DNA of 33,919 bases from IMG/VR virus record IMGVR_UViG_2579778797_000012. The stretch is one strand, 5' to 3'. The notes below the pieces were generated by a model that was given only the letters and a program-made list of their open reading frames with translations, was not told the origin of the DNA and did not search any database. Position 1 is the stretch's first letter. Each line of letters begins with the position of its first letter. The stretch comes from a virus (Duplodnaviria > Heunggongvirae > Uroviricota > Caudoviricetes). Positions 10,718-27,044 of the stretch are shown here, in pieces. Made by a program: the position numbers and the translations under genes.

Positions 10718-11054
10718 GTGTCTCACTTTTGTCCCAATACCAATCCGAATCCACCCTTTGTCATCATTGAGAAATGGCAAGGAAGAAAAGGATGTTACTG
10801 CACGATTTGACAAATCCGCCAGAGCTATCGCATACTGATCGCACTGAACAAATAAGCGGTCTCCGCACCCGATAGCTTTGCGGCTTTTTTATGCCTGCAA
10901 TTTGGCATAGTTACATCCGTACAAAGGTCGGGTGGAGAGGCGTAATACAACACCCGCAAGGGGAATATGCCCAGAGCTTCTTATTTGGCTCAGTTGACAC
11001 CCGACCGCCAGCTACTAACTGGCGGTTATAAACTAAACAAATAAGGAGGTCATC

Positions 11055-11339: not shown

Positions 11340-11588
11340 CTATACTCCGCGCCGAGGCCTCGAAAACCTCCCAAAAGCGGATTAAACCAACCCCGTCAGT
11401 GTTGGATTTTTTATGCCTGTTATTCAGTGATAGCACAGTGTGCGGTCACATCCCCGATCAATGTCGGGAGGGCGACGAATACAACACCCGCAAGGGGAAT
11501 AAGTCCGCGGTATCTTTTGGGCCGTTTCGAGCCTCCCGGCACCACATCTTGTGGTGGCATTTCTCGAAAAAAGCCAAAGGAGGTCATC

Positions 11589-12218
11589 ATGACCACTCAA
11601 CTCATCCCTGTGTTTGAAGGTACAATCTCAAATGAACCTACGCTTCTGGTGAACGCGCGTGATTTGCATGGATTTTTAGAGGTAGGTAAAGATTTTTCTA
11701 ACTGGATACGGGCCAGGCTAAACGAGTATGGATTCGTAGAAAATTTAGACTACATTCTATTTTCGCCAAATTTGGCGAAAACTCCAGGCCGCCGCCGCAA
11801 GGATTACCACCTCACCCTCGACACAGCCAAAGAGCTTGCGATGGTTGAACGTAACGAAAAAGGCCGCCAGATACGCCGCTACTTCATCGAGTGCGAAAAG
11901 AAACTTCGCAACATTCAGCCAGTACAAGCAGAACCACAGCCGCAATTCACAGCCGAGGAAATAATCCTCCTCTGCTACATGCAGCTCTGGATGGAAAAAG
12001 CCCAGGACCTTAGCAAGCAGCTGTACCCCATAATGAAAGAGCTGAACTCCTCATACACGAACAAGCTGTATGACATTGCGTTTGAGACTATCTACATGGT
12101 GACGAAGAACAGAGATGTGCTACTGAGAGAGGCGGCACGGCTTGACCAGTCGAGTTTCGTAGTTCAGCGGGCCAGACCAATGCTGAAAAGCCTGCGGGCA
12201 AGACAATTTGAATTCTGA
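11589..12218 (+). CDS. AntA/AntB-type antirepressor-domain protein (209 aa from the RBS-supported start)
   Basis: MTTQLIPVFEGTISNEPTLLVNARDLHGFLEVGKDFSNWIRARLNEYGFVENLDY... RBS AAAGGAGG directly upstream of the ATG at 11589. The track ORF starting at 11427 is an RBS-less upstream extension. Confidence 0.55.
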   Translation: MTTQLIPVFEGTISNEPTLLVNARDLHGFLEVGKDFSNWIRARLNEYGFVENLDYILFSPNLAKTPGRRRKDYHLTLDTAKELAMVERNEKGRQIRRYFIECEKKLRNIQPVQAEPQPQFTAEEIILLCYMQLWMEKAQDLSKQLYPIMKELNSSYTNKLYDIAFETIYMVTKNRDVLLREAARLDQSSFVVQRARPMLKSLRARQFEF

Positions 12219-14358: not shown

Positions 14359-14883
14359 CTACCTCAGATCACCTAATAATATATCAAGATTATTTTGCGC
14401 ATTAATGCTATTCGCCATTACTGTTGCTGCTTCTGGCAACTTTCCAAGAGCAATAAATATATTCTTAAGGCTGATTGGAATTGATGAACCATGCGGATCG
14501 CGCCACTCACCGCAAATTCTGTGAGTTTCATCACAAAGCCTGAACGCATCCCAACCTCCATATTGACCAAAAATTATGTCCATTGACTCTATTTCTGCGG
14601 GCGATAACTCCCCCAGCTCATCAACAGAAGAAAATGTACGCCACATTTCAACCTTATGATCCGCTACATCAGATATCCATGATTCCCACGGACTGTACTC
14701 GTTTTCACTTCCATCCTTAACCAAAGAATATGTCTGCGATAAAACGGGTCCTTTGTTCATAGAGAAATAATGATCACCACTAATGGGAAAACCATACAAC
14801 TCCATTGCTTTGCGGTCAGAGAGATACATCAGCTTAATGAAACGCATAGATCCGCCATGTTTTTTCAGCAAATACGCTGCCAT
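14359..14883 (-). CDS. DUF4065 (Panacea/SocA-like) domain protein
   Basis: 174-aa ORF. FIKLMYLSDRKAMELYGFPISGDHYFSMNKGPVLSQTY fits the conserved KLqKLLY...GPV core of DUF4065 antitoxin-like proteins (from memory of the family profile). No strong RBS at the annotated start. Confidence 0.5.
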   Translation of the reverse strand: MAAYLLKKHGGSMRFIKLMYLSDRKAMELYGFPISGDHYFSMNKGPVLSQTYSLVKDGSENEYSPWESWISDVADHKVEMWRTFSSVDELGELSPAEIESMDIIFGQYGGWDAFRLCDETHRICGEWRDPHGSSIPISLKNIFIALGKLPEAATVMANSINAQNNLDILLGDLR

Positions 14884-15033: not shown

Positions 15034-18000
15034 TTAATCCACTCCCACTTTTTTGTTGTACTCGCGGTTAAAGCGATCCACGGCAACCTTCATATCCCGC
15101 TCTACCGATTTCACCATCGCCGCCTGCTGCGCCAGACTGAGAGAACTGTCGGCATAAATGGCATCGCGCTGTTTGCGCAAATCCTTCAGTCTCTTCCGGG
15201 TATCCTGCATAAGCCCGTTCATCAACAATTTTCCGTTGTTCTCGTCAATGAACGCCGTTCTTTCTGCACCGGTCAGACTCTTCAGCTCTGCGTGATACTG
15301 CGCAACCTCTGTCATCCGGTCGTACATCTTCTGCTGGTCTGCATACGGCATCACCTCACCCGAAATTTTCCCCAGGAAGGGCACCTGCTGCTCCGGTATA
15401 TCAATACCGTTCAGCGATTTCACCGCCGCATCTGTGGTTTTGGAAATGAAGCGCCCTGTCCCTCCGGAGATATAGTCAATCCAGAATTTCAGCGATTCCG
15501 GTGTGATATCCACCGCGCCGGGACGATACTGGCTGCCACCTGAGAACGCATTCAGCCAGGATGCAAACGCCTTGTACGCCTCAGGCGTTGAACGTCTGCC
15601 CAGCTGGCTGTCCGGTTTCGGTGTGCCAAATGGCATGTTCTCCTGGTAAATCTGCGCCCCCATGAAGTTTTCATTCATGGCAAGGTTCGCAAACGGACGC
15701 AGAATGGTCGGCGCTGCATTTTTCAGCAATGCCCCGGACAGTGTTTCCGACGTTTCACTGCCCACAGGACTGAATGCCCCCAGGATACCACCGACAACAT
15801 TACCGGCAGCACGTGAAGCAGTCAGGTCGCCCGCTGCCACACCTTCAGCAGTATGCCCGAGCAGGAAGAAAACGTTGTACCCGTAAGGCAGAGGAATACT
15901 CCAGTACTCTCCGGCCTTGCCCCCGAACACCGATTTCATAATGACGAGGTTACGCTCTTTCACATGAGACGGCACCTTGTCATACCAGTTAACCCCGTCA
16001 TCATCCTCCCCCGCAACACTGCGGTTAAGCGAGCCAAGCAGATAACCCGCTCCCACAGCTGCAAGCGCGATTTTCTGCGGTACATTGAGATTCTTCCAGC
16101 GAAGGCGCTCCGGTAACGGCCCGTCGCCATTAAGATGTCCGAGCGTTCTCACCAGGTTTGCGGTCCCCTGAATGCTGGCGTTGGCAAACATATACAGCGA
16201 GTTCATCAGCGCTCCCTGCTCACCACGACGGTTAAAGTTCACCGTCATGTTTTTGGCAAGAGATGCCGCCTGCTGGCGTGACAAACCGGCATCACGGGCG
16301 TGTTTATAGGCAGAAAGACGCAGAGCGTTTTCAACCGCGCCGTTGGCATCCTCGACCAGGTTCAGGAACGAATGCCATGCACCGATACTCTGGCCTTTCC
16401 ATCCTCCCTTCGCCAGCGATACAAGGCGATCCATTTCCTTCTGCTGGCCTTCAAGGTCACCCATGTTAAACCAGCCGGTTTTACCTCCGTCCTCAACAAA
16501 CTCTTTCCACACCTTCTGCCACTGCGCACCGTTGCCCGTGAGGGTTTTACCACGCAGACTGGCGTATACGGCAGACATGGCAGACCGGCTGTCTTTCACC
16601 ACAGCCAGGGCGGATAAGTTATCCAGCCCTTTCAGTTTACCGTCGCTCCTTCCCTGCTCCGCCTTCAGGTTCATCACCGCCGTCTGCACGTCACGGATGA
16701 AGTTACTGACCAGGAATTCCGGGTTATACGACGTGTTCACCGTTGCCAGGAAGCGGTTAACTTTCCCCAGCGTGCGGATTACGGCGTTACTGGTTTCCGG
16801 TCCCATATTCTTCATCGCACGCATCAGGCGCGGATCATGGAGTTTGATGTAGTACGTTTTGCCGTTCTTTTTGGTGGTGAAGTACCGGTCTGCCATCATT
16901 GCCATCGGTACAGGACGTTCGACAACTTCGTGACGGGTTTCACCGGTTTCCGGAACAACACGCTCTGCAATCGCACGCATGGTGTCCGGTCGCTCATTGG
17001 TGAATACCTGCCAGTAATCCTTGTCTGGATTATCCTGTACCAGTTTCAGGAAGGCGTTACCTACTTCATTTTTGCGATTGCGGATCAGCGATTCGCTCAA
17101 GTCCTGTATCGCCTGAGTGGACGGAGACTGTGCGCGGGATGCACGCCCCATGGCCTGCCTGCTTTCACGTCCGCCGATAGTGAAGCCTTTACCTGTACGG
17201 GGCAGTGACACCACACCGTCAACATCCTGGCCTTTCAGAGGAACGTAGTAACGGTAGGCGTTCTGCCAGGCATCCACCACACCGCTCTCTTCCAGTCCGG
17301 CCTCACGGATAAGCTCACGGCGACGGGCCAGCATATCGTCAACAATCCCTGCCAGACGGTCATACTGTGCCTGTTTGCCACTGTTACGCACACGCTGCAT
17401 GATTTCCGCCGCTTCCGCGTTGGTCATCCCCGAACCGCCGTCCGGCATTTTCGGGTTGATTTTCGCGATATGCGCGTTACGTTCCGGCGCGTGACGGGCG
17501 TAGAGGTACTCATCCAGATCGGCCTGCGCAATTTTGTAGTCCGCCAGTAATTTAGCCAGCGGCTGAACATAGCGCTCCTTCATCACGTTCAGGTCGTTTT
17601 CCGCCTTCCCGTGGAAGAGTTCTTCCGCCATATAAGCGTTGTTACTGTCGTCTATTTTTCCGCCAGTTTTACGGATATTCTCCTGAACAGCTTTCAGCAC
17701 CTGGAATTTATCCTGCATCTGGCGCACAAAACGCGATGCAATTGTCTCTTCCGGTGTCAGACTGCTGGTACGGGAGTAATGCGGCCCCTTGCGAATATCT
17801 TCAGGATAGAGTATTTTATCCGCAGAGCCGCGATAAGAATGTTCCCCTTTGGGCAATTGGAGTCCTCTGTGCAGAAGGTTATCGCGGCTTAATTTTTCTC
17901 TCCGGTACAACGTTAACCCGGTCATTTCCATACTCTTCAGTTTTTTTCCATTTTCTGTACCGTAAACAGAAGCTACCTTGTTGATTTCCAGACGCGACCG

Positions 18001-21000
18001 GACAGCCTTCATGTGTACCGCTGACACCACCGGATCACCATTTTTATCCACGGCATCAAGCAGCATCACAACCGCATTTCTTTCTGTCGCTGAGTGGTAA
18101 ATTGCATCCGGATCGTGCATCAGTTCCGGTAGTCTCTCGATAACATCCATCGGCACCACATGTTTCACACCATTGGTGGCCTTACGCACAGTGTCGCGGG
18201 AGATAACCAGCGGCAAATCTGGTGCGCCAAGGTGACGCAATACCGGCGGCGTACGCCCGATGTTTACCGTTAAATCCGTTGAGCGCAGAGACTTCATCAT
18301 TCTGGCAAGGTCATCACGATAACGCTCGCCCTCACCTTCCGGCACTTTGAACGGATCAGGCTTACCGCTACGGGAGTACTGAGACGATGCGCCAGCGCCA
18401 TCCTCACGCGGCGTGTAACCTTCCCGCACACGCTGGCCTAACGTGCGAATAGTTTCGCGAACAAGTCTGATATCGTTCAGCTCTGTCGGCTTCAGTAACC
18501 CCGTGCGACGCAGTACCCCTTTGACCAGGGCAACAACACGCTCCCACGCCGCCACAAATTTATTCGGCTGTTTCTCCGCCATATGTGCCAGAAATTCACC
18601 CGCCTGCACTTCCGGTGATTCCTTACCATAAGACGCATCAACCTTACGCCAGGCTTCACGGATGGTGGCGTTATCACTGTCACGGGTTTTCAGCACGGTC
18701 TTAATAATCGTCTGATATTCCGCTGGCGTGACTACATGCTCCATTGCATGGTGGATAATCTCGTGACGCAGCTTCTCGCGAACGGTCCGCCCGTCAGGAA
18801 TGTTATCCGCCACCAGGACAATTTCACGTTTATCCGGACGATAGAACGCATGCCCCCTGCCGTAACCGTCGAACGATTCACCCGCCAGCGCTTCAGCCTC
18901 TTTCTGTGACTTCACCACGCGGACCTTCAGGTCACTGTCCTTAATGCCACTCATCACGCCACGGGCAACCGCTTCAACCTGCGGGACCGGGCTGCCTTTG
19001 GCTTCCGCACTGCGGTTAACATCCGAAATGAGATTGCCTTCAGGTGTGCGGGTCACGCCCTTACGGGAATAAAACGCAACGCCCTTGTCCGTCTCACGGG
19101 TTTTCAGCGTACTGAACAGGTGATCGAATGCATCACGAATACCGCCATCCAGTTCCGCATTCGTCGGATAAGCCCAGGTGTTATCTGTGTTGTGCTCAGG
19201 TGCCTTACGGATATTGACCAGATAATCATTCTCCACGCCAGCCGTACGCGCTTTATCCTGAACATAACGCTCAAAGGCACGCGCCGCCATTTCAACATCC
19301 GTTGACCAGTACGGTTTTGAGCGCACCTCATCGAGAAGCGCTGAACGACGCGGCATGTCACTGCTGTTGATCGCTTTCATCACGCCTTTAAACGCGTCGT
19401 AAACCTCCTGACGTACCGGATATTCCGCATCAACATATCTGCCGTCTTTAAATACGCGCCCGGCACGCTGTGCTTCCGTCATATAGTCGCCACCTGACGT
19501 GATCTTCCCGTCAGTGGAAACATCATAACGACCAAAATAATTATCCAGTGAATGGAACCATTCGTGGGCCAGCGCCCCCGGTCCGTTACCTTTTGTCAGG
19601 TTGATTGCCACCTCACCCGGCTCATAGTGTGCCGCCGCCTTACCCTTACCACGGGCACCAAAAGCAAGCCCAAGACGACCGTTCAGAGAAAGCGCTTTTG
19701 TCGGCACGTTCAGCACATCAGCCAGGTCATGCAGCGAGTCATAAGCCCGGTTCAAATCAGCCTGACGACGCGGACCTTCCACATAATTACCAAACTGCAC
19801 ACCACGAAAACCAAACGCATCACTGAACTGCTCCGGCGAAACATCCCCCTTGCGGCGTTCTGGTCCGGTACGATCGCGGTTGGTGGCGTTACGCTGCTCC
19901 TCACGCGAAATCTCCCGCATCTCCTTCACATGACGAACAAGCTCATCACGATGTGAATCAATGTACTTACGCGCATCACTGGCTGACTTAAAGCCACCTC
20001 TCACCCGCATTTTGTTTTTGCCATAAGCGATAAAAATATCGCCACTGCGGGTATTCCGGTAAACGTCAAAGCGGATTTTGTCATCCGGTGACGGTGCCGT
20101 TTTTTCATCTCCTTTCGCCTGTGACTTTTCCTCCAGCTCTGCAAACCAGACTTTCGCCTTTGTCAGTAATTCATCCCTGCTTTCCGAGAAAAAGAGGTTA
20201 GTCCCCTTATTGTCCTTATTGCGCAGTGAATAAAGTTTCTGTGGCGGATCGTAACGCTTCCCTCCTGCCGCCTGATACACACCCGATACCACCCGATAAG
20301 CAGAAGCCTTGTCCATCTGTGAGGGTGGCAGAGTGCGTAACAGTTGCCAGGTATCCGCGTAACGGGAGGGCATTCTGCCTTCCATCCATTCTGCGAGGCG
20401 TTTCGCGCTGACCGTTCCGTTCAGCATTTCCGATACACTGTGTCGTACTTTTTTTACGCTCTCCCCCCAGCCAGCCGTATTGTGTTTCGTCTTCGCCGGA
20501 ATATCGCTACGATACAGCGCTATCATTGCCAGGGTGTCAGCATCAGCCCCTTCGCTCGCCAGTTTTGCGTAGTCCGGTTTCGGGAACAGTTTGCTCAGCG
20601 GCTGCGTGGCATAATCCCTGTCTTCCAGCGTTTTACCCAGTGTTTCAGCAAGCTGTGCATAACGGTGTTTTGCCGCGCCCTTAATTTCTTCACCAAAGTC
20701 TTCAATTTTCGCACCACGCGCCTGCTGGTGAGTGCTCGGTTTATCTACCGGCATCGGCACCTCAGTATCCGGAACATCGGTTATGGTCTGGCGATTATCC
20801 CCGGTCTGTCTGCGTGCTTCTGCCTGCTGTGCCAGTTCCGGAAGGGAGTCACGAACCATACGAGGGAGTGATTCAGGCTGTGGCATATCAACCCCACGCT
20901 GACTTTCAGGTGCAGGAAGTCCTTCACGCACTGGTGCTGTGGCGTTCTGCTCATCCGGTGACGGCAGACCACGACGAACCGGTTCGCCCTCCAGTATTTC

Positions 21001-23397
21001 CCCCCGGCGACCAGCGGCATTTTCCGGTGCCTGCGCACGTCCTTTCTGGAAACTCTGGCCCTTCACCTCACCGGTTGTGGTAAAACGACCACCACGTCCG
21101 GCCTGATTTTCATCCGGCGTACGCGCCACTTCTCCCGGTAACGGATATCCCTGTCCGGGATGAATATCGCCGGGAGCGGGAAGGCGTGGACGCTCAGTTA
21201 ACTCCTGAGCTGTCGGACCGGCATCACCTTCAGCCATCTGTGAACGCACCAGCTCTTCCGCCGTCGGCACGTTGCCACGGGCAAGGCGGGCCTGCACTTC
21301 TGTATCATCTCCCGTAAAACCCCGGAATCGCGGGTCACGCATGAACGCTGGCTGCTCCATCGGATCAGCATCAGCAATACGCTCTCCGTCAGCCAGGGTG
21401 TTAATGGTTTCCGTTGCCACATCTTCAGAGAACGCAGGATTATCCATTTCAACGGCATACTGATTCTCACCTTTCTTCACTACGGACGGTTTCAGGCCGG
21501 TGGCGCTGGCATTGCGAAAAACATCGCTACCCATGGCGCTTTTCTCATCCGTGAAATAACGGTTGTCCGGACGCACCTTTTCAATGCGTTCTGCTGGTCT
21601 GGACGCACCACTCCCGTTAATTTCAATACGAACTTCATCCGGATCGCGGAACCGCACCGTCGGGTAAATACTCCCGTCGCCATCATCCGCATTTTCCGGC
21701 TGTGGCTGTGCCTCCGGTCTGGCCTCCTGCTGAGGGCGAAGCACATCACGGATAGCCTGTAACTGCTGCTCTTCAGTATCAGTACGCCCTTCCTTCAGGC
21801 TGAGTTTTCGGTATTCCTCAAGCAGTTCAGGGCGCGGCTTCGCCTTCAGCTCATCCATTACCGCCTGTCGCTTCGCCTGTTCATCCAGTTCATTCAACAG
21901 CTGGCTGGCGGCTTCCCGGCGATGAACGGCAGACGTGTCTCCCTCATGTGCCATATCCGCATCAGCATACTGTTCCAGAAGCTGCTCGCGATTCATCCCC
22001 TGCATGGATTCACGATGCTGTGCCACCGGATCAACCGGTTCGGGTTGCGGGGCTGCGTCGTCCTGCTGCACGGTTTCAGCATCACGCATGGCTGCTTCTT
22101 CTGCGGCCTGACGTCTGCCACGATATCCGGCAACCGCACCGAATGGAGCCCCCATCGCAGCACCAAAGGCTGCACCTTCGATCGTTGCGTCAGCCACGCC
22201 CTCCCACGGTGACACATCCATTCCGGCGGTCTCACGCAATGCCGTGTTTTCCTGATAGCGCGAATAGGCGTTCTGTGCCCCGTTAATTACGCCCTGTTCC
22301 GTGGCATTTCTGACAATGCCGCTTTTAACGGTCTTCGCTGTGCCTCGTGTCACCAGATTAAACAGTTGTGCGTCACCCAGTTTTGCCGCCATGGCATTCA
22401 CAGCCAGCAATTCAGGATCGGTTGCCAGCTGCGCGCGCACCTCATCGGCAACACGCTCTTTTGCCAGGTCCATTTTCTGGCGATCAGTAAGCTGTGCGTG
22501 CTGTGGATCTGCATCAATTGACAAAAACGTCTGCTGAAATTTCGGTGACTGCGCCAGCTCAGCGTAATCCGCATTAAGAACAGCATCTGCTGCCGACATT
22601 GCACTCTGCCCCTGTGCACTGGCTGTGGAATGGGTGATCAGGCCCGCATGGAAGAAATCCGTCATTTTTTTATCGACAGCTTCTGCTGCCAGTGCCGTGG
22701 CTCTTTCCGGCTGCACTCCTGCCGCGATGTATTTTTTCTCCAGCCCGGCGGTCAGCGTTCTTTTCAGTGCGACCTGTCCCACCTTTCTAACCACACCGCC
22801 AGCAACCAGATCAGGTACAAGCGCACCAATCAGGTTTACACCCTTCGTCAGCAAGACCGCAGAATCATCATAGCCTTCACTCATTGGCGTGTTCAGCGCA
22901 CGAACAGCACCCGGCGACATCTGATCTGTCAGCCATTCATCCGAGGCTTTGGCACCATCACTGACTGCCTTACCGGTTGCTTTCAGACCTTCACCGACAG
23001 TATCAGTGACCGCGTTTTTACCTGTTCCATCGGGAATGTTTTTAATCGCATCTCCAACAGAAGGTGGCGCGCCCAGTTCCTTTTGCGTGGAGGAAGGCGG
23101 CATGTAAACATCCGTCATGAAAGACGACAACCCGGCAAGCGTTTTTACAGGATTATTTACAAATCCATCACCGAGTCCACGGACCATCTCCCCTGTTCCC
23201 CGGACGGACTGGGCGAAACCTTTACCCATTGTTGGCAATACATCACCGAGGCTGAACGATGTGCTGTGATCAATGGCATTCTGCGGGTTGCTGAAAAAAT
23301 CCTGCCAGTAATTTTCTCCCGGCTGCTTAATGTTCAGGCTGCTGCGGTTCTGGTTACCCAATTGCGCTTCAGGGCGCTGCTCATCTGAAAAAGCCAT
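15034..23397 (-). CDS. Giant multidomain protein (2,787 aa) with two HExxH metallopeptidase-like motifs; putative phage polyvalent or effector protein
   Basis: Single uninterrupted ORF with GGAG 8 nt upstream of the ATG. HEWFH at nt 19552-19566 (about residues 1278-1282) and HEIIHH at nt 18748-18765 (about residues 1545-1550). Low-complexity A/Q/E/P-rich N-terminal third. Function inferred only. Confidence 0.6.
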   Translation of the reverse strand: MAFSDEQRPEAQLGNQNRSSLNIKQPGENYWQDFFSNPQNAIDHSTSFSLGDVLPTMGKGFAQSVRGTGEMVRGLGDGFVNNPVKTLAGLSSFMTDVYMPPSSTQKELGAPPSVGDAIKNIPDGTGKNAVTDTVGEGLKATGKAVSDGAKASDEWLTDQMSPGAVRALNTPMSEGYDDSAVLLTKGVNLIGALVPDLVAGGVVRKVGQVALKRTLTAGLEKKYIAAGVQPERATALAAEAVDKKMTDFFHAGLITHSTASAQGQSAMSAADAVLNADYAELAQSPKFQQTFLSIDADPQHAQLTDRQKMDLAKERVADEVRAQLATDPELLAVNAMAAKLGDAQLFNLVTRGTAKTVKSGIVRNATEQGVINGAQNAYSRYQENTALRETAGMDVSPWEGVADATIEGAAFGAAMGAPFGAVAGYRGRRQAAEEAAMRDAETVQQDDAAPQPEPVDPVAQHRESMQGMNREQLLEQYADADMAHEGDTSAVHRREAASQLLNELDEQAKRQAVMDELKAKPRPELLEEYRKLSLKEGRTDTEEQQLQAIRDVLRPQQEARPEAQPQPENADDGDGSIYPTVRFRDPDEVRIEINGSGASRPAERIEKVRPDNRYFTDEKSAMGSDVFRNASATGLKPSVVKKGENQYAVEMDNPAFSEDVATETINTLADGERIADADPMEQPAFMRDPRFRGFTGDDTEVQARLARGNVPTAEELVRSQMAEGDAGPTAQELTERPRLPAPGDIHPGQGYPLPGEVARTPDENQAGRGGRFTTTGEVKGQSFQKGRAQAPENAAGRRGEILEGEPVRRGLPSPDEQNATAPVREGLPAPESQRGVDMPQPESLPRMVRDSLPELAQQAEARRQTGDNRQTITDVPDTEVPMPVDKPSTHQQARGAKIEDFGEEIKGAAKHRYAQLAETLGKTLEDRDYATQPLSKLFPKPDYAKLASEGADADTLAMIALYRSDIPAKTKHNTAGWGESVKKVRHSVSEMLNGTVSAKRLAEWMEGRMPSRYADTWQLLRTLPPSQMDKASAYRVVSGVYQAAGGKRYDPPQKLYSLRNKDNKGTNLFFSESRDELLTKAKVWFAELEEKSQAKGDEKTAPSPDDKIRFDVYRNTRSGDIFIAYGKNKMRVRGGFKSASDARKYIDSHRDELVRHVKEMREISREEQRNATNRDRTGPERRKGDVSPEQFSDAFGFRGVQFGNYVEGPRRQADLNRAYDSLHDLADVLNVPTKALSLNGRLGLAFGARGKGKAAAHYEPGEVAINLTKGNGPGALAHEWFHSLDNYFGRYDVSTDGKITSGGDYMTEAQRAGRVFKDGRYVDAEYPVRQEVYDAFKGVMKAINSSDMPRRSALLDEVRSKPYWSTDVEMAARAFERYVQDKARTAGVENDYLVNIRKAPEHNTDNTWAYPTNAELDGGIRDAFDHLFSTLKTRETDKGVAFYSRKGVTRTPEGNLISDVNRSAEAKGSPVPQVEAVARGVMSGIKDSDLKVRVVKSQKEAEALAGESFDGYGRGHAFYRPDKREIVLVADNIPDGRTVREKLRHEIIHHAMEHVVTPAEYQTIIKTVLKTRDSDNATIREAWRKVDASYGKESPEVQAGEFLAHMAEKQPNKFVAAWERVVALVKGVLRRTGLLKPTELNDIRLVRETIRTLGQRVREGYTPREDGAGASSQYSRSGKPDPFKVPEGEGERYRDDLARMMKSLRSTDLTVNIGRTPPVLRHLGAPDLPLVISRDTVRKATNGVKHVVPMDVIERLPELMHDPDAIYHSATERNAVVMLLDAVDKNGDPVVSAVHMKAVRSRLEINKVASVYGTENGKKLKSMEMTGLTLYRREKLSRDNLLHRGLQLPKGEHSYRGSADKILYPEDIRKGPHYSRTSSLTPEETIASRFVRQMQDKFQVLKAVQENIRKTGGKIDDSNNAYMAEELFHGKAENDLNVMKERYVQPLAKLLADYKIAQADLDEYLYARHAPERNAHIAKINPKMPDGGSGMTNAEAAEIMQRVRNSGKQAQYDRLAGIVDDMLARRRELIREAGLEESGVVDAWQNAYRYYVPLKGQDVDGVVSLPRTGKGFTIGGRESRQAMGRASRAQSPSTQAIQDLSESLIRNRKNEVGNAFLKLVQDNPDKDYWQVFTNERPDTMRAIAERVVPETGETRHEVVERPVPMAMMADRYFTTKKNGKTYYIKLHDPRLMRAMKNMGPETSNAVIRTLGKVNRFLATVNTSYNPEFLVSNFIRDVQTAVMNLKAEQGRSDGKLKGLDNLSALAVVKDSRSAMSAVYASLRGKTLTGNGAQWQKVWKEFVEDGGKTGWFNMGDLEGQQKEMDRLVSLAKGGWKGQSIGAWHSFLNLVEDANGAVENALRLSAYKHARDAGLSRQQAASLAKNMTVNFNRRGEQGALMNSLYMFANASIQGTANLVRTLGHLNGDGPLPERLRWKNLNVPQKIALAAVGAGYLLGSLNRSVAGEDDDGVNWYDKVPSHVKERNLVIMKSVFGGKAGEYWSIPLPYGYNVFFLLGHTAEGVAAGDLTASRAAGNVVGGILGAFSPVGSETSETLSGALLKNAAPTILRPFANLAMNENFMGAQIYQENMPFGTPKPDSQLGRRSTPEAYKAFASWLNAFSGGSQYRPGAVDITPESLKFWIDYISGGTGRFISKTTDAAVKSLNGIDIPEQQVPFLGKISGEVMPYADQQKMYDRMTEVAQYHAELKSLTGAERTAFIDENNGKLLMNGLMQDTRKRLKDLRKQRDAIYADSSLSLAQQAAMVKSVERDMKVAVDRFNREYNKKVGVD

Positions 23398-23409
23398 ACA
23401 GACTCCAGT

Positions 23410-23437
23410 AAAAAAAAGCCCGACACGATGGTCGGGC
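23410..23437 (-). terminator. Rho-independent terminator 13-40 nt upstream of the giant ORF start
   Basis: Minus-strand GCCCGAC-CATCGT-GTCGGGC hairpin (23418-23437) followed by T8 (complement of the A-run at 23410-23417). Confidence 0.7.
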
Positions 23438-23482
23438 GTAAGTGAACGATATTAACGGGGAGCGCGTTACTGCCGCGTAACT

Positions 23483-24745
23483 TTACTTCATCCAGCCTCT
23501 GATCTCTTCGGCTGATGCAGCAGCGCTATAATTCTTCGCTTTTTCCTGTTCGGCTTTTTTATCCCGGAGGTGATTCTGGTACCAAATTTCCAGTTCCTTT
23601 TCACGCCCCGGTTCCAGCAAGGCTGGCATATTGGCGGCAGTCGCTTTGACAAACTCCAGTTTGACCGGATCGCCCTCCGCCCAGGTCTGCCCCTTCTGTA
23701 AAAGCTGTTCAAATTTCTGTTGCTGAATTTTCTGCTGATATTCCGGTAAACCATGCGCAGCTAAAAATTCATCCCTCGCAGCCTGAGCATTACCGCCGTT
23801 CTTGATCGCTTCCGCTGCTACCTGGCTGGCTTCTTTCTGAATATCTTTCAGAGAAAGCCCCTCCTGCTTCGGCGTGAAATAACCGAAATTTTTCGAAATT
23901 TCCGCGAATTTACTGCGATCCCTGACAAGCTCAACAGCCTTATCAACAGGCACCGCCAGCACGGTTTGATCATCAGGGTGCGCACTGCCGTATTCTGTTA
24001 CAGGTTTATGCGCGGTGGAGCCATCGCTGTATGTGAGATCAAGGCCAATAAGTACGTACCCTTCCTGCTGCGCCGGTACGATACTGCCAATCCTGGCCTC
24101 TTTTATCGTTTTTTCCCCGGTTGAATCAGGCATGCCAATACGCTGTTGTAGTTCCGGGGCAAACACGCCGGAAAGCACATCGAGATTTTCCGGGGTATTC
24201 AGCGAAGCAATCGCCCTGTCCGGCTTATCATCAAAGATTTTCTGCAGGTTGTTCACGGCCTGACCCGCTTTCGCAGCATAGCCTACCGTTGACATCATCT
24301 TAAGCGGATTGGCGTCCGATAATTTACCGAACAGATGAGAAGCCGCATCATGGTCACCCGCATCAATCGCTTTTCCCAGCGCCGCCATCACAGGCTGATC
24401 GCGCGCCAGCATATCGTTATACTCAAGCCGTCGCTGGTTGTATTTCTGCAACTGGAGTCGTTGCTGTTCCATCCCCAGCGACGCATTCCGGTAATTCTGG
24501 TTGGCGTTAAACTCCCTTTCCTGCAGTGTGTAATTGCGGTCATCAACTTTGGCTCTGTAATCAAAGTTCCGCTGATCAACGTCTTTATTATGTTCAAACT
24601 GAGACTGCGCAAATTCAAAATCGCGCTCGTTATTTTTCTGTTGCTGAGCAAGCTGTGCTTCTCGCAAACCAAGCTCCTTACGACGGGTCATTGCCTGGTC
24701 AACAGTGCTGAATCCGGCAAGTAACCCCTGTGCAAATCCGCTCAT
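23483..24745 (-). CDS. Hypothetical protein, Q/E/K-rich coiled-coil-like (420 aa)
   Basis: Long ORF, tightly packed with neighbours. Composition (QQQK, EQEKAK runs) suggests coiled coil. No recognisable catalytic motif. Confidence 0.45.
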   Translation of the reverse strand: MSGFAQGLLAGFSTVDQAMTRRKELGLREAQLAQQQKNNERDFEFAQSQFEHNKDVDQRNFDYRAKVDDRNYTLQEREFNANQNYRNASLGMEQQRLQLQKYNQRRLEYNDMLARDQPVMAALGKAIDAGDHDAASHLFGKLSDANPLKMMSTVGYAAKAGQAVNNLQKIFDDKPDRAIASLNTPENLDVLSGVFAPELQQRIGMPDSTGEKTIKEARIGSIVPAQQEGYVLIGLDLTYSDGSTAHKPVTEYGSAHPDDQTVLAVPVDKAVELVRDRSKFAEISKNFGYFTPKQEGLSLKDIQKEASQVAAEAIKNGGNAQAARDEFLAAHGLPEYQQKIQQQKFEQLLQKGQTWAEGDPVKLEFVKATAANMPALLEPGREKELEIWYQNHLRDKKAEQEKAKNYSAAASAEEIRGWMK

Positions 24746-24755
24746 TCACCACTCC

Positions 24756-25007
24756 TTAAAACAACGAACCAGCAAGACCACCGATGACTGCACCAATAGC
24801 GGCACCGGGAAGGCCACCAACGGCAGCCCCCACAGCAGCACCGCTACCAATTCCCGTTCCAATATTCTGCTTGTGCTGTGCTTTCTGTTGCGCCGCCATC
24901 ATCTTGTTTGACGCCTCAATTTCTTCACGTCGTCTGTCTGCATCACTTATTCCCTGTAATGCCTCACGCCGTGACTGATTCGCAATATCCAGTAAACCGT
25001 ATCCCAT
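24756..25007 (-). CDS. Hypothetical small protein with C-terminal glycine-zipper membrane segment (83 aa)
   Basis: C-terminus GIGSGAAVGAAVGGLPGAAIGAVIGGLAGSLF is a glycine-zipper-type hydrophobic segment. 9-10 nt gaps to both neighbours. Confidence 0.45.
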   Translation of the reverse strand: MGYGLLDIANQSRREALQGISDADRRREEIEASNKMMAAQQKAQHKQNIGTGIGSGAAVGAAVGGLPGAAIGAVIGGLAGSLF

Positions 25008-26122: not shown

Positions 26123-26140
26123 AATGGCTCCTCAGATAAC

Positions 26141-26162
26141 AAAAAACCCTGCCGGAGCAGGG
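26141..26162 (-). terminator. Rho-independent terminator downstream of the 133-aa gene
   Basis: Minus-strand CCCTGC-TCCG-GCAGGG hairpin (26147-26162) followed by T6 (complement of 26141-26146). Confidence 0.65.
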
Positions 26163-26215
26163 TCAGAATGTGAATTGCAATGTGGGTTTACGCTCGATGA
26201 TGAATACAGTGGCAG

Positions 26216-26617
26216 TCAGACTGCTATCCTGAACACCATGAAGCCATCCTCATCATCCGGCATTCGCTCAAAGCCCAGACGTTTTCCCAGCCGGATAAAT
26301 CCTCGTCTTGCCGTATGAAATTCGGCCCAGCGTCCGCCAGCCAGGCGGGTTAATGTCTTCACCTCCGGCAGATAACGCTCAACACTCTTACTCCCCGTAC
26401 ACACGCCCAGTAACACCAGAACATAAGGGATACCATCGTCACTGAGCACAGAACGCAGCACCAGAAAACCATCCGGCGCTTCAAAGCAAAACGCCTGCTT
26501 TTTAAGGCAGGCGTCTTTAACTTCATTCATAAATTCAGGGTTGCGGGAATTTCTCACAACACGCTGCATATACCGGAGAATTTTGTCGTCCATTCTCTCA
26601 CCTGAAACGGGTGCCAT
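26216..26617 (-). CDS. Hypothetical protein (133 aa), independently transcribed moron-like gene
   Basis: ORF bracketed by intrinsic terminators on both sides. No signal peptide and no recognisable motif. Alternative start at the internal Met (MDDKILRY). Confidence 0.45.
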   Translation of the reverse strand: MAPVSGERMDDKILRYMQRVVRNSRNPEFMNEVKDACLKKQAFCFEAPDGFLVLRSVLSDDGIPYVLVLLGVCTGSKSVERYLPEVKTLTRLAGGRWAEFHTARRGFIRLGKRLGFERMPDDEDGFMVFRIAV

Positions 26618-26995
26618 ATCGGCTGAACCTCAGCAACCAGTTGACGGGGACTTTCGTCCCCGTCGCGGTTTTCCTACTGCTTACACTGTAAGAACGCCGC
26701 AAACTCCGCTCCCCACAAATTCAGCCGGAACTCACACAACGAGCCGTGTAACATCCAGATGGTGAAGATTACCGTCATACAAATTGTGACGGTGATGAGC
26801 GATTTTTGCGACATAACGCTTGTCTCCTGAGTGGAGAGGCGCTAACCTACTACTTGTGAAGGTTGTACGGTCAGGGCCTCGGGTTAACATTAAAGTTGAC
26901 TCGGGGCCTTTCCACATCAGGCCTTCAGGTTCACCTTCCAGCCATCAGCCGAAAGGCACCCGCGCATAATCTACGATTTTTGCCCTGCACGGGCA

Positions 26996-27021
26996 ACAAA
27001 AAACCCGCCATCACAGCGGGT
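26996..27021 (-). terminator. Rho-independent terminator downstream of the lom-like gene
   Basis: Minus-strand ACCCGC-loop-GCGGGT hairpin (27003-27021) followed by a T-run (complement of the A-run at 26996-27002). Confidence 0.65.
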
Positions 27022-27044
27022 TATGACATGTTGTCGGATACAGA

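What the first reader, a model, noticed from the sequence alone, without database searches (positions are those of the whole stretch)
23398..23482. Strong intrinsic terminator placed 13-40 nt upstream of the giant ORF start codon
A 7-bp GC-rich hairpin with T8 (23410-23437, minus strand) sits between the stop of the 420-aa gene and the ATG of the giant ORF, with the giant ORF's GGAG ribosome-binding site directly after the T-run. Transcription entering the giant gene would have to read through this terminator or start in the remaining ~13 nt. That suggests expression is gated, for example by late-gene antitermination, consistent with a potentially toxic or tightly dosed product.
Basis: seen in the sequence. 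Interest (0 to 1): 0.5.

Follow-up and report, generated by a model that had tools for sequence, protein, structure and literature searches.

The report
Internal terminator before giant phage gene
A real, conserved transcription-terminator hairpin sits just before the giant virion-protein gene of a Shiga-toxin-type prophage, but it is one of several ordinary terminators inside a late operon that the phage's Q antiterminator lets RNA polymerase read through.

Summary
On the minus strand a 7-bp hairpin (GCCCGAC-CATCGT-GTCGGGC, 23437-23418, -12.4 kcal/mol) is followed by T8 (23417-23410), then AC-TGGAG-TCTGT-ATG of the 2787-aa ORF. No site this good appeared in 588 shuffles. All ~50 relatives covering the junction keep it, with compensatory stem changes.

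The context is the far end of the late operon of a 933W/Sp5/phi24B-type short-tailed lambdoid prophage. The giant ORF is a polyvalent protein (LPD5, LPD1, MuF_C, LPD38). In phi24B it is abundant in virions. In Sp5 both it and the 420-aa neighbour are essential for infectious particles. There is no promoter-like site and no room for one, so transcription must cross the hairpin. Relatives have Q and about 40 kb of same-strand late genes ending at this gene. In phi24B, induction raises transcripts 7.3-fold upstream and 5.6-fold downstream of the hairpin.

The terminator is not special to this gene. Five such sites lie on this strand in the window, 7 of 22 junctions in Sp5 and 5 of 23 in lambda, including one just before J. 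Distant Aeromonas and Vibrio relatives also have a terminator at this junction.

Readthrough by antitermination is supported as a general operon property. A dedicated gate on a toxic or scarce product is not. Interest is low.

The parts
23418..23437 (-). Terminator stem-loop GCCCGAC-CATCGT-GTCGGGC (7 bp, 6 G-C; -12.4 kcal/mol)
   Evidence: conserved with compensatory changes
23410..23417 (-). T8 tract (U-tract of the terminator); 7-9 T in relatives
23403..23406 (-). GGAG Shine-Dalgarno of the giant ORF, 5 nt before the ATG; GGAGTCTGTATGGC is invariant in relatives
15034..23397 (-). Giant ORF, 2787 aa: polyvalent virion protein (LPD5, LPD1, MuF_C, LPD38). Homolog of Sp5 ECs_1242/ORF80 and phi24B gp47 (vb_24B_48). 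It is the last structural gene on the late strand in the window; only a 174-aa SocA/Panacea-domain ORF (14359-14883) follows it there, and in relatives (PhiR12_3, UCPROB-002) it is the last late gene.
23483..24745 (-). 420-aa ORF (PHROG 601, no Pfam). Homolog of Sp5 ECs_1241/ORF79 and phi24B gp48 (vb_24B_47). Found in virions and essential for infectivity. It is the last gene of the tightly packed 218/150/83/420-aa block that the hairpin closes.
26139..26164 (-). Sister terminator: GACCCTGCTCCGGCAGGGTT + T-run, followed by GAGGAGCCATT-ATG of the 218-aa gene. Same 'terminator then RBS then ATG' layout.
26996..27022 (-). Sister terminator directly after the lom/ail-like gene (AACCCGCTGTGATGGCGGGTT + T-run)
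32534..32568 (-). Sister terminator CGGCAGGCGCAGGACTCTGGTCTGCCG + TTTTTCAT (-16.9 kcal/mol), between the YadA-anchor gene and the 166-aa ORF

Best explanation
This is a functional-looking intrinsic (Rho-independent) terminator inside the Q-dependent late operon of a 933W/Sp5/phi24B-type lambdoid podovirus prophage. It marks the boundary between a tightly packed block of virion (probably internal or ejection) protein genes (218, 150, 83 and 420 aa) and the last structural gene, an 8.4-kb gene for the giant polyvalent virion protein. Shown: the structure, its conservation, its position, the absence of any promoter-like site, and the fact that the downstream gene is essential and abundantly expressed. 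Inferred: during lytic growth, RNA polymerase that was modified by Q at PR' about 40 kb upstream ignores this hairpin, as it ignores tR' and the other internal terminators, so the giant gene is transcribed as the distal end of the late transcript. Unmodified polymerase stops here. Such polymerase could come from constitutive lom or hok/sok-type insert promoters upstream, or from spurious starts in the prophage. The result is that the 8.4-kb gene stays silent in lysogens. Likely secondary roles (inferred): the hairpin protects the upstream mRNA from 3'-exonucleases, and the U8 tract serves as a U-rich leader just before the ribosome-binding site.
For: Structure and significance. Conservation with compensatory changes in about 50 relatives. 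No promoter-like site in 23300-24800. No known RNA family at the site. Q plus an unbroken same-strand late region ending at the giant gene in PhiR12_3 (giant N-terminus 100% identical to the window) and in Sp5. PR'/Q antitermination in Stx phages: PMC7547250. Giant protein abundant in phi24B virions. ECs1241 and ECs1242 each essential for infectious Sp5 and complementable in trans. Induced transcripts on both sides of the hairpin (7.3-fold and 5.6-fold). The same design elsewhere in the operon and in lambda (D|E, E|FI, I|J, J|lom, lom|stf). A terminator at the same junction in the lambdoid Aeromonas phage phiARM81mr and in Vibrio phages. No Hfq-bound sRNA listed at this junction in lysogenic Sakai.
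Against: Termination and Q-dependent readthrough at this particular site have never been measured. The Q gene and PR' lie outside the window, so they are known only from relatives. The phi24B fold-changes are ratios from one time point, are not significant for the giant gene (p = 0.31), and may be blurred by antisense RNA in that gene. The Vibrio relatives keep a terminator here but have an extra spacer of about 80 nt with a weak promoter-like match. The common denominator across lineages could therefore be 'separate transcription unit' rather than 'antitermination'.
Confidence: 0.62

Rival explanations
1. It is a partial terminator or attenuator that works during lytic growth as well. A fixed fraction of polymerases stops here, lowering giant-gene mRNA relative to the upstream block. 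The hairpin also stabilises the 3' end of the upstream message. This would be a stoichiometry and mRNA-stability device like T7 T-phi after the capsid gene, and it needs no antitermination.
For: Terminator-like hairpins sit at the same few junctions (after portal, around the major capsid gene, before the giant gene) in three distant lineages. The Vibrio phages have one here too. There is a slight drop in induction ratio across the site, 7.3 to 5.6. Spectral counts per residue in phi24B are about 1.6 times higher for gp48 than for gp47 (a crude measure).
Against: In lambdoid phages Q-modified polymerase is known to be broadly terminator-resistant (established knowledge; PMC7547250 for Stx phages). 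The expression decline along the phi24B late operon is a smooth distance gradient rather than steps at terminators. The giant protein is abundant in virions. This rival is compatible with the best explanation as a secondary role.
Confidence: 0.25
2. One reading: a dedicated gate that keeps a toxic or very tightly dosed giant protein off until a specific late signal arrives.
For: The terminator is strong (T8, -12.4 kcal/mol) and there is no promoter after it. The junction terminator is conserved across E. coli, Aeromonas and Vibrio relatives.
Against: The site is one of many equivalent terminators in the same operon and in lambda. The protein is abundant in virions and essential, not scarce. 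No toxin-type domain was found, only LPD5, LPD1, MuF_C and LPD38. ECs1242 could be supplied in trans for complementation, which argues against strong toxicity. There is no alternative leader structure or known regulatory RNA.
Confidence: 0.07
3. The hairpin is the 3' end of a small regulatory RNA derived from the 3' end of the 420-aa gene and bound by Hfq, like other short prophage sRNAs of EHEC.
For: The hairpin plus long U-tail is the typical Hfq-binding 3' module. A TTAATA motif 15 nt upstream of the hairpin is kept in all three sequence variants. Stx prophages encode many short Hfq-bound sRNAs (PMC4104026).
Against: No EcOnc sRNA is listed at the ECs1241/ECs1242 junction in the Hfq crosslinking data from lysogenic Sakai. 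The only entry nearby, EcOnc36, is antisense inside the giant gene. There is no promoter-like site upstream and no Rfam match.
Confidence: 0.04

Closest known systems
Internal terminator-like hairpins of the phage lambda late operon (D|E, E|FI, I|J, J|lom, lom|stf junctions), read through by Q-modified RNA polymerase from PR'
   Same: The type of phage regulation is the same (relatives have Q, and late genes form one long same-strand unit). The element is the same kind, a compact GC hairpin plus T-run in an intergenic gap. The layout is the same: at lambda I|J the hairpin and T-run are followed at once by GGAG..GAGGA-ATG of J, the largest virion gene. The frequency is similar, 5 of 23 junctions in lambda against 7 of 22 in Sp5.
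   Different: The phage morphotype differs (podovirus of the Sepvirinae/Traversvirus type) and so do the genes. The sequence is unrelated. Here the downstream gene is an 8.4-kb polyvalent protein gene at the very end of the operon.
tR' and Q antitermination of Stx phages (933W, Sp5)
   Same: Same phages and same operon. An intrinsic terminator blocks unmodified polymerase and is bypassed once Q is made (PMC7547250).
   Different: tR' lies immediately after PR' and is the actual on/off switch; it also yields the sRNA StxS. The present site is about 40 kb downstream and has no promoter of its own. No sRNA is recorded there.
T7 T-phi terminator after the major capsid gene 10 (from general knowledge, not tested here)
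   Same: It is a terminator inside a late structural gene cluster with essential virion genes directly downstream that depend on readthrough. It sets relative expression and gives the upstream message a stable 3' end.
   Different: T7 uses its own RNA polymerase and relies on incomplete termination rather than an antiterminator. T-phi follows the capsid gene, whereas here the upstream gene is a 420-aa virion protein.
Moron cassettes of lambdoid phages (promoter, gene, terminator; Juhala et al. 2000, as cited in PMC4104026)
   Same: These are terminators embedded in a Q-antiterminated late region. The window has such terminators after lom and in the hok/sok-like region.
   Different: The gene closed by this hairpin is not an insert. 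It is an essential virion gene present in all relatives, including Aeromonas and Vibrio phages that lack lom and hok.

Membership tests
Intrinsic (Rho-independent) terminator | GC-rich stem-loop immediately followed by a U-tract on the transcribed strand | tested here: met
   7-bp stem (6 G-C), 6-nt loop, -12.4 kcal/mol, T8 with no gap. 0 of 588 shuffles gave an equal site.
Intrinsic (Rho-independent) terminator | Structure, rather than sequence, is maintained in evolution | tested here: met
   Three stem variants keep 100% of cells paired, against 29-43% when slid. Two pairs change on both sides. Only about 3 independent lineages exist, so the statistics are thin.
Intrinsic (Rho-independent) terminator | Causes transcript 3' ends at the U-tract in vitro or in vivo | not testable with these tools
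   Needs Term-seq, 3' RACE or in vitro transcription.
Internal terminator of a Q-antiterminated lambdoid late operon | Phage encodes Q, and late genes lie on one strand downstream of PR' with the site inside that unit | tested here: met
   Met in relatives: PhiR12_3 has Q at 20537-20962 and the giant gene ends at 61861 of 61979; in Sp5, Q is ECs_1203 and the unit runs to ECs_1242. The window itself ends before Q.
Internal terminator of a Q-antiterminated lambdoid late operon | No promoter between the terminator and the downstream gene, which is nevertheless expressed in lytic growth | tested here: met
   The T-run is separated from the ATG by 12 nt. No promoter-like match in 23300-24800. gp47 is abundant in virions, ECs1242 is essential, and vb_24B_48 is induced 5.6-fold.
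Internal terminator of a Q-antiterminated lambdoid late operon | Readthrough depends on Q | not testable with these tools
   Requires Q-deficient and Q-proficient transcription assays.
Moron (promoter-gene-terminator insert) | The terminator closes an accessory gene with its own promoter that is variably present among relatives | tested here: not met
   The 420-aa gene is essential and present in all relatives, including Aeromonas and Vibrio phages. No promoter-like site upstream.
Leader attenuator or riboswitch | Alternative antiterminator structure, leader peptide or aptamer upstream of the terminator | tested here: not met
   The fold of 23380-23500 is no more stable than shuffles (z = -0.15) and has no competing helix. 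Rfam gives only a sub-threshold chance hit (17.7 bits against a 49.5-bit threshold). The 45 nt upstream of the hairpin differ between variants.
Hfq-dependent 3'-derived sRNA | Discrete Hfq-bound RNA ending at the terminator | tested here: not met
   No EcOnc entry at the ECs1241/1242 junction in Tree et al. 2014 supplementary tables. Only lysogenic conditions were sampled.

The most novel reading that the evidence does not exclude
The terminator in front of the giant polyvalent-protein gene is not just one of many. It is a specifically conserved checkpoint of this whole class of podoviruses (E. coli Sepvirinae, Aeromonas phiARM81mr, Vibrio 1.205.O and D-type phages, with under 30% protein identity between them). 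It would make the 8-9 kb gene a separately controlled unit. Expression would occur only through processive antitermination in the lambdoid members, or from a private promoter in the Vibrio members, so that this very costly ejection protein is made last or in a set ratio. It is the only junction that carries a terminator in all three lineages (2/14 x 5/22 x 7/22 gives about 0.01 if placement were random; this is a rough figure, and the lineages are not independent).
Probability: 0.15. Interest if true: 0.4.

Novelty: new member of a known kind. Interest (0 to 1): 0.2.

Why it matters
The finding mainly helps annotation and the interpretation of Stx-phage biology. It fixes the true start of the giant gene at the ATG after GGAG. 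Several database records start the gene inside the hairpin. In phi24B the translated terminator was even read as a signal peptide, and the protein length is given as 2811 aa. It shows that expression of the essential giant virion protein depends on transcription running about 40 kb from PR' through a series of terminators, which is a concrete illustration of how completely these phages rely on Q. It also gives a testable site for asking whether internal terminators in late operons only insulate the prophage, or also tune protein ratios and mRNA stability. It does not reveal a new mechanism.

Tried and rejected
1. The 420-aa gene as major capsid gene, with the hairpin as a capsid-gene terminator. 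This was suggested by 'N4-family major capsid protein' and 'bacteriocin' labels in some records. I rejected it: those labels are shifted or spurious. The capsid gene is about 13 kb upstream (ECs_1223), and the 420-aa protein has no Pfam hit.
2. A special hairpin family with a CAYYGT loop shared by late-operon terminators of E. coli and Aeromonas phages. One Aeromonas hairpin is 18/18 identical to an E. coli variant. A scan of IMG/VR gave at least 120 hits in many unrelated contigs, and only 7 of 82 were at this junction. It is a generic terminator shape, not a specialised element. No control loop pattern was scanned, so enrichment of that loop is untested. A first scan used a mis-specified pattern and found nothing.
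3. Reaching distant homologs through the large protein database. All 120 listed hits were E. coli proteins at 76% identity or more. The genome-contig scan gave only a 552-bp contig. tblastn against phages was what reached the Vibrio and Aeromonas relatives.
4. An sRNA at the junction. No entry in the EcOnc tables.
5. Copy numbers of gp47 and gp48 from the phi24B preprint. Table 1 is an image, so only raw spectral counts were readable.
6. Structure prediction of the 420-aa protein was not attempted, because it would not bear on the terminator.

Full report
**1. The observation.** Reading the minus strand gives the following. The 420-aa ORF ends with TAA at 23485-23483. After 45 nt comes GCCCGAC-CATCGT-GTCGGGC (23437-23418), then eight T (23417-23410), then AC-TGGAG-TCTGT and the ATG at 23397 of a 2787-aa ORF (15034-23397).

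The consensus scan ranks this as the best minus-strand terminator-like site, and the hairpin folds at -12.4 kcal/mol. On the late strand of the window there are 4 sites with dG <= -11 and at least 6 T in 8. Dinucleotide-preserving shuffles (588 of them) gave 0.26 +/- 0.51 such sites, and none contained a site as good as this one.

**2. Genomic context.** The region is 93-94% identical to E. coli prophages and to phage PhiR12_3, and 80-90% identical to about 180 Stx-converting phages. These are short-tailed lambdoid phages of the 933W/Sp5/phi24B type (Sepvirinae). Gene order on the late (minus) strand of the window is:
- a 567-aa internal virion protein and a 422-aa tail-tip protein;
- two small genes, a Lom/Ail protein and a hok-like region;
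- genes of 133, 218, 150, 83 (Gly-zipper) and 420 aa;
- the giant ORF.

In relatives the giant gene is the last late gene, next to the host flank. In the window only a small SocA/Panacea ORF follows it on that strand, and host ynfE/ynfF-like genes begin below about 10.5 kb.

The giant protein carries LPD5, LPD1, MuF_C and LPD38 domains, which makes it a 'polyvalent protein'. The 420-aa protein has no Pfam domain and belongs to a PHROG of unknown function. Labels such as 'major capsid protein' or 'bacteriocin' in some records are shifted or spurious.

**3. What is known about the two genes.**
- In phi24B, cryo-EM plus proteomics found the giant protein (gp47) abundant in purified virions but invisible in the map, and the authors propose it is an ejection protein (bioRxiv 10.64898/2026.04.10.717836).
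- The supplementary proteome of that preprint also detects the 421-aa neighbour (gp48) and the homologs of the 218-, 150- and 83-aa genes. In the batch sample the counts were 179 spectra for gp48, 746 for gp47 and 101 for portal.
- In Sp5, in-frame deletions of ORF79 (ECs1241) or ORF80 (ECs1242) abolish plaque formation and lysogenisation. DNA packaging and heads stay normal, and both deletions are complemented in trans (PMC5155283).

The giant gene is therefore essential and well expressed in every productive cycle. It is not a rare or obviously toxic product.

**4. Conservation.** I collected 48 IMG/VR loci plus annotated genomes. Every locus that covers the junction has the hairpin, a run of 7-9 T, GGAG and the ATG. 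Three stem variants exist:
- GCCCGAC/GTCGGGC (the window's variant);
- GCCCGGC/GCCGGGT;
- ACCCGGT/GCCGGGT.

All cells stay paired, against 29-43% when the 3' arm is slid. Two pairs change on both sides. The sequence between the stop codon and the hairpin differs between variants, whereas GGAGTCTGTATGGC is invariant.

In the commonest variant an ATG inside the hairpin is in frame with the giant ORF. As a result, some records start the gene there. The conserved RBS and ATG after the T-run, used by RefSeq for ECs_1242, are the credible start. The 'leader peptide' is the translated terminator.

**5. How transcription reaches the giant gene.**
- Only 12 nt separate the T-run from the ATG. No sigma-70-like match occurs anywhere in 23300-24800 on either strand.
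- The nearest complete relative, PhiR12_3, has a giant N-terminus 100% identical to the window's. It has Q at 20.5 kb and then only same-strand late genes up to the giant gene, which ends 118 nt before the genome end.
- Sp5 shows the same layout, from Q (ECs_1203) through stx2, lysis, head and tail genes to ECs_1242, about 38 kb.
- Late transcription of Stx phages starts at PR' and depends on Q antitermination at tR' (PMC7547250).
- In phi24B RNA-seq, norfloxacin induction ratios fall smoothly along this operon: S 134, stx 96, small terminase 75, portal 30, capsid 32, then 22, 15.5 and about 8. They are 7.3 for the 421-aa gene (vb_24B_47) and 5.6 for the giant gene (vb_24B_48).

Induced transcription therefore crosses the hairpin with at most a modest loss. 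These are ratios from one time point, and the value for the giant gene is not significant (p = 0.31), so this is supportive evidence and not decisive.

**6. The site is not unique.** An energy-based scan finds compact GC hairpins plus T-runs at five places on the late strand of the window: T-runs starting at 32541, 27003, 26491, 26146 and 23417. It finds about a dozen along the Sp5 late strand, nearly all in intergenic gaps.

A junction-by-junction census of the structural operons gives these counts:
- Sp5, 7 of 22 junctions: after portal, after the capsid gene, after ECs_1224, after ECs_1229, after lom, after ECs_1237 and before the giant gene.
- Aeromonas phage phiARM81mr, 5 of 22.
- Vibrio phage 1.205.O, 2 of 14.

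Several of these lie directly before an RBS and ATG. One example is the window site at 26146, before the 218-aa gene.

Phage lambda, scanned in the same way, has 5 of 23.

**7. Deep conservation of the junction.** tblastn reached two distant groups with the same synteny: small genes, a coiled-coil protein of about 440-470 aa, then a gene of roughly 3100-3700 codons at the end of the structural operon.
- In the lambdoid Aeromonas phage phiARM81mr the junction holds GCCCCGA…TCGGGGC (-18 to -22 kcal/mol) plus TTTTCTTTT, then 21 nt with GAGGA and an ATG. The ORF is interrupted in that record, and the annotated start lies 1.7 kb further on.
- In Vibrio phages 1.205.O and D96a the junction holds AAGCCCGC-CTAGT-GCGGGTTT plus TCTTTT. 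An AT-rich spacer of about 80 nt follows, with one 9/12 promoter-like match, before the RBS. A strong terminator also follows the giant gene there.

The giant-gene junction is the only one carrying a terminator in all three lineages. This hints at some selected role for this boundary, and I keep that as the 'novel case'. The number of independent lineages is only three.

**8. Readings tested and set aside.**
- The hairpin shape with a CAYYGT loop looked like a family. One Aeromonas terminator after the portal gene is 18/18 identical to an E. coli variant of this one. However, the pattern has at least 120 hits across unrelated IMG/VR contigs, and only 7 of 82 are this junction. It is a generic terminator shape.
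- No Rfam family matches. The leader has no alternative structure.
- No Hfq-bound sRNA is listed at the junction in lysogenic Sakai.
- The 420-aa gene is not an accessory insert.

**9. Mechanism.** The most likely account (confidence about 0.6) is an intrinsic terminator that stops unmodified polymerase and is ignored by Q-modified polymerase. It keeps the 8.4-kb gene silent in the prophage, despite constitutive lom and hok/sok-type promoters upstream, while allowing full expression late in infection.

A partial-terminator or mRNA-stabiliser role during lytic growth (about 0.25) is compatible with this and may coexist with it. A dedicated gate for a toxic or scarce product (about 0.07) is contradicted by the abundance and essentiality of the protein and by the many equivalent sites.

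**10. Verdict.** The element is a new, well-conserved member of a known kind. Interest is low (0.2). The practical yields are the corrected gene start and the cross-genus conservation of this operon boundary.

Noticed in passing
window about 17375-17456 (+) and about 17760-17850 (+), antisense to the giant ORF: In lysogenic E. coli O157 Sakai the Sp5 homolog of the giant gene (ECs1242) ranks 17th among Hfq-crosslinked coding sequences, almost entirely from antisense reads. An sRNA candidate, EcOnc36, is listed antisense inside it (PMC4104026). By position it would map to roughly 17760-17850 on the window's + strand. Separately, the window has a + strand promoter-like site at 17375-17403 (TTGCCA-17-CATGAT), followed by the hairpin CCCGAACCGCCGTCCGGCATTTTCGGG and a T-rich tail that begins at 17456. 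This pair is conserved in Sp5.
   Followed up: partly
phi24B HM208303 49148 (L181 21149); junction equivalent to window 23398-23440: Several database records start the giant gene at an in-frame ATG inside the terminator hairpin. They therefore translate the hairpin and T-run (MPGHCAGFFYGVC…). In HM208303 this stretch is annotated as a putative signal or leader peptide, and the 2026 phi24B preprint gives 2811 aa. The conserved RBS and ATG lie after the T-run.
   Followed up: yes
window 10926-11014 (+) and 11463-11548 (+): There are two matches above the gathering score to Rfam sRNA-Xcc1 (RF02221; 69 and 73 bits). They lie at the prophage/host boundary region, and the second overlaps the start of the AntA-type antirepressor ORF (11427-12218).
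   Followed up: no
L058 (Aeromonas phage phiARM81mr) 32778-34637 and 21972-23605: The giant gene of phiARM81mr is annotated from 49636 only, which leaves about 1.86 kb unannotated. The N-terminal homology lies in that stretch in shifted frames, pointing to a frameshift or sequencing error. The same structural operon carries a retron-type reverse transcriptase gene (p59) next to tail genes.
   Followed up: partly
L003 (Xanthomonas pisi DSM 18956 contig NZ_JPLE01000287.1, 552 bp): A 552-bp contig of a Xanthomonas assembly encodes the first 136 residues of the 420-aa protein at 93% identity. This is most likely contamination of that assembly by E. coli prophage DNA.
   Followed up: no
window 26470-26670, both strands: The hok/sok-like region between lom and the 133-aa gene has facing terminator-like hairpins: + strand 26491-26514 and 26642-26665, and minus strand 26512-26491. 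The minus-strand hairpin CGCCTGCC-TTAAAAA-GCAGGCG lies inside the 133-aa ORF. It is also present in the homologous Aeromonas gene p64, so it may be coding-sequence conservation rather than a terminator.
   Followed up: no
It is very often followed within 10-25 nt by an RBS and ATG. Whether the CAYYGT loop is over-represented relative to other loops was not tested.
   Followed up: partly
phi24B Table S4 of PMC4651098 (genes mapped through L181): Induction ratios fall about 20-fold along the phi24B late operon, from S at 134-fold to the giant gene at 5.6-fold at the sampled time. The decline is a smooth distance gradient rather than steps at the internal terminators.
   Followed up: partly
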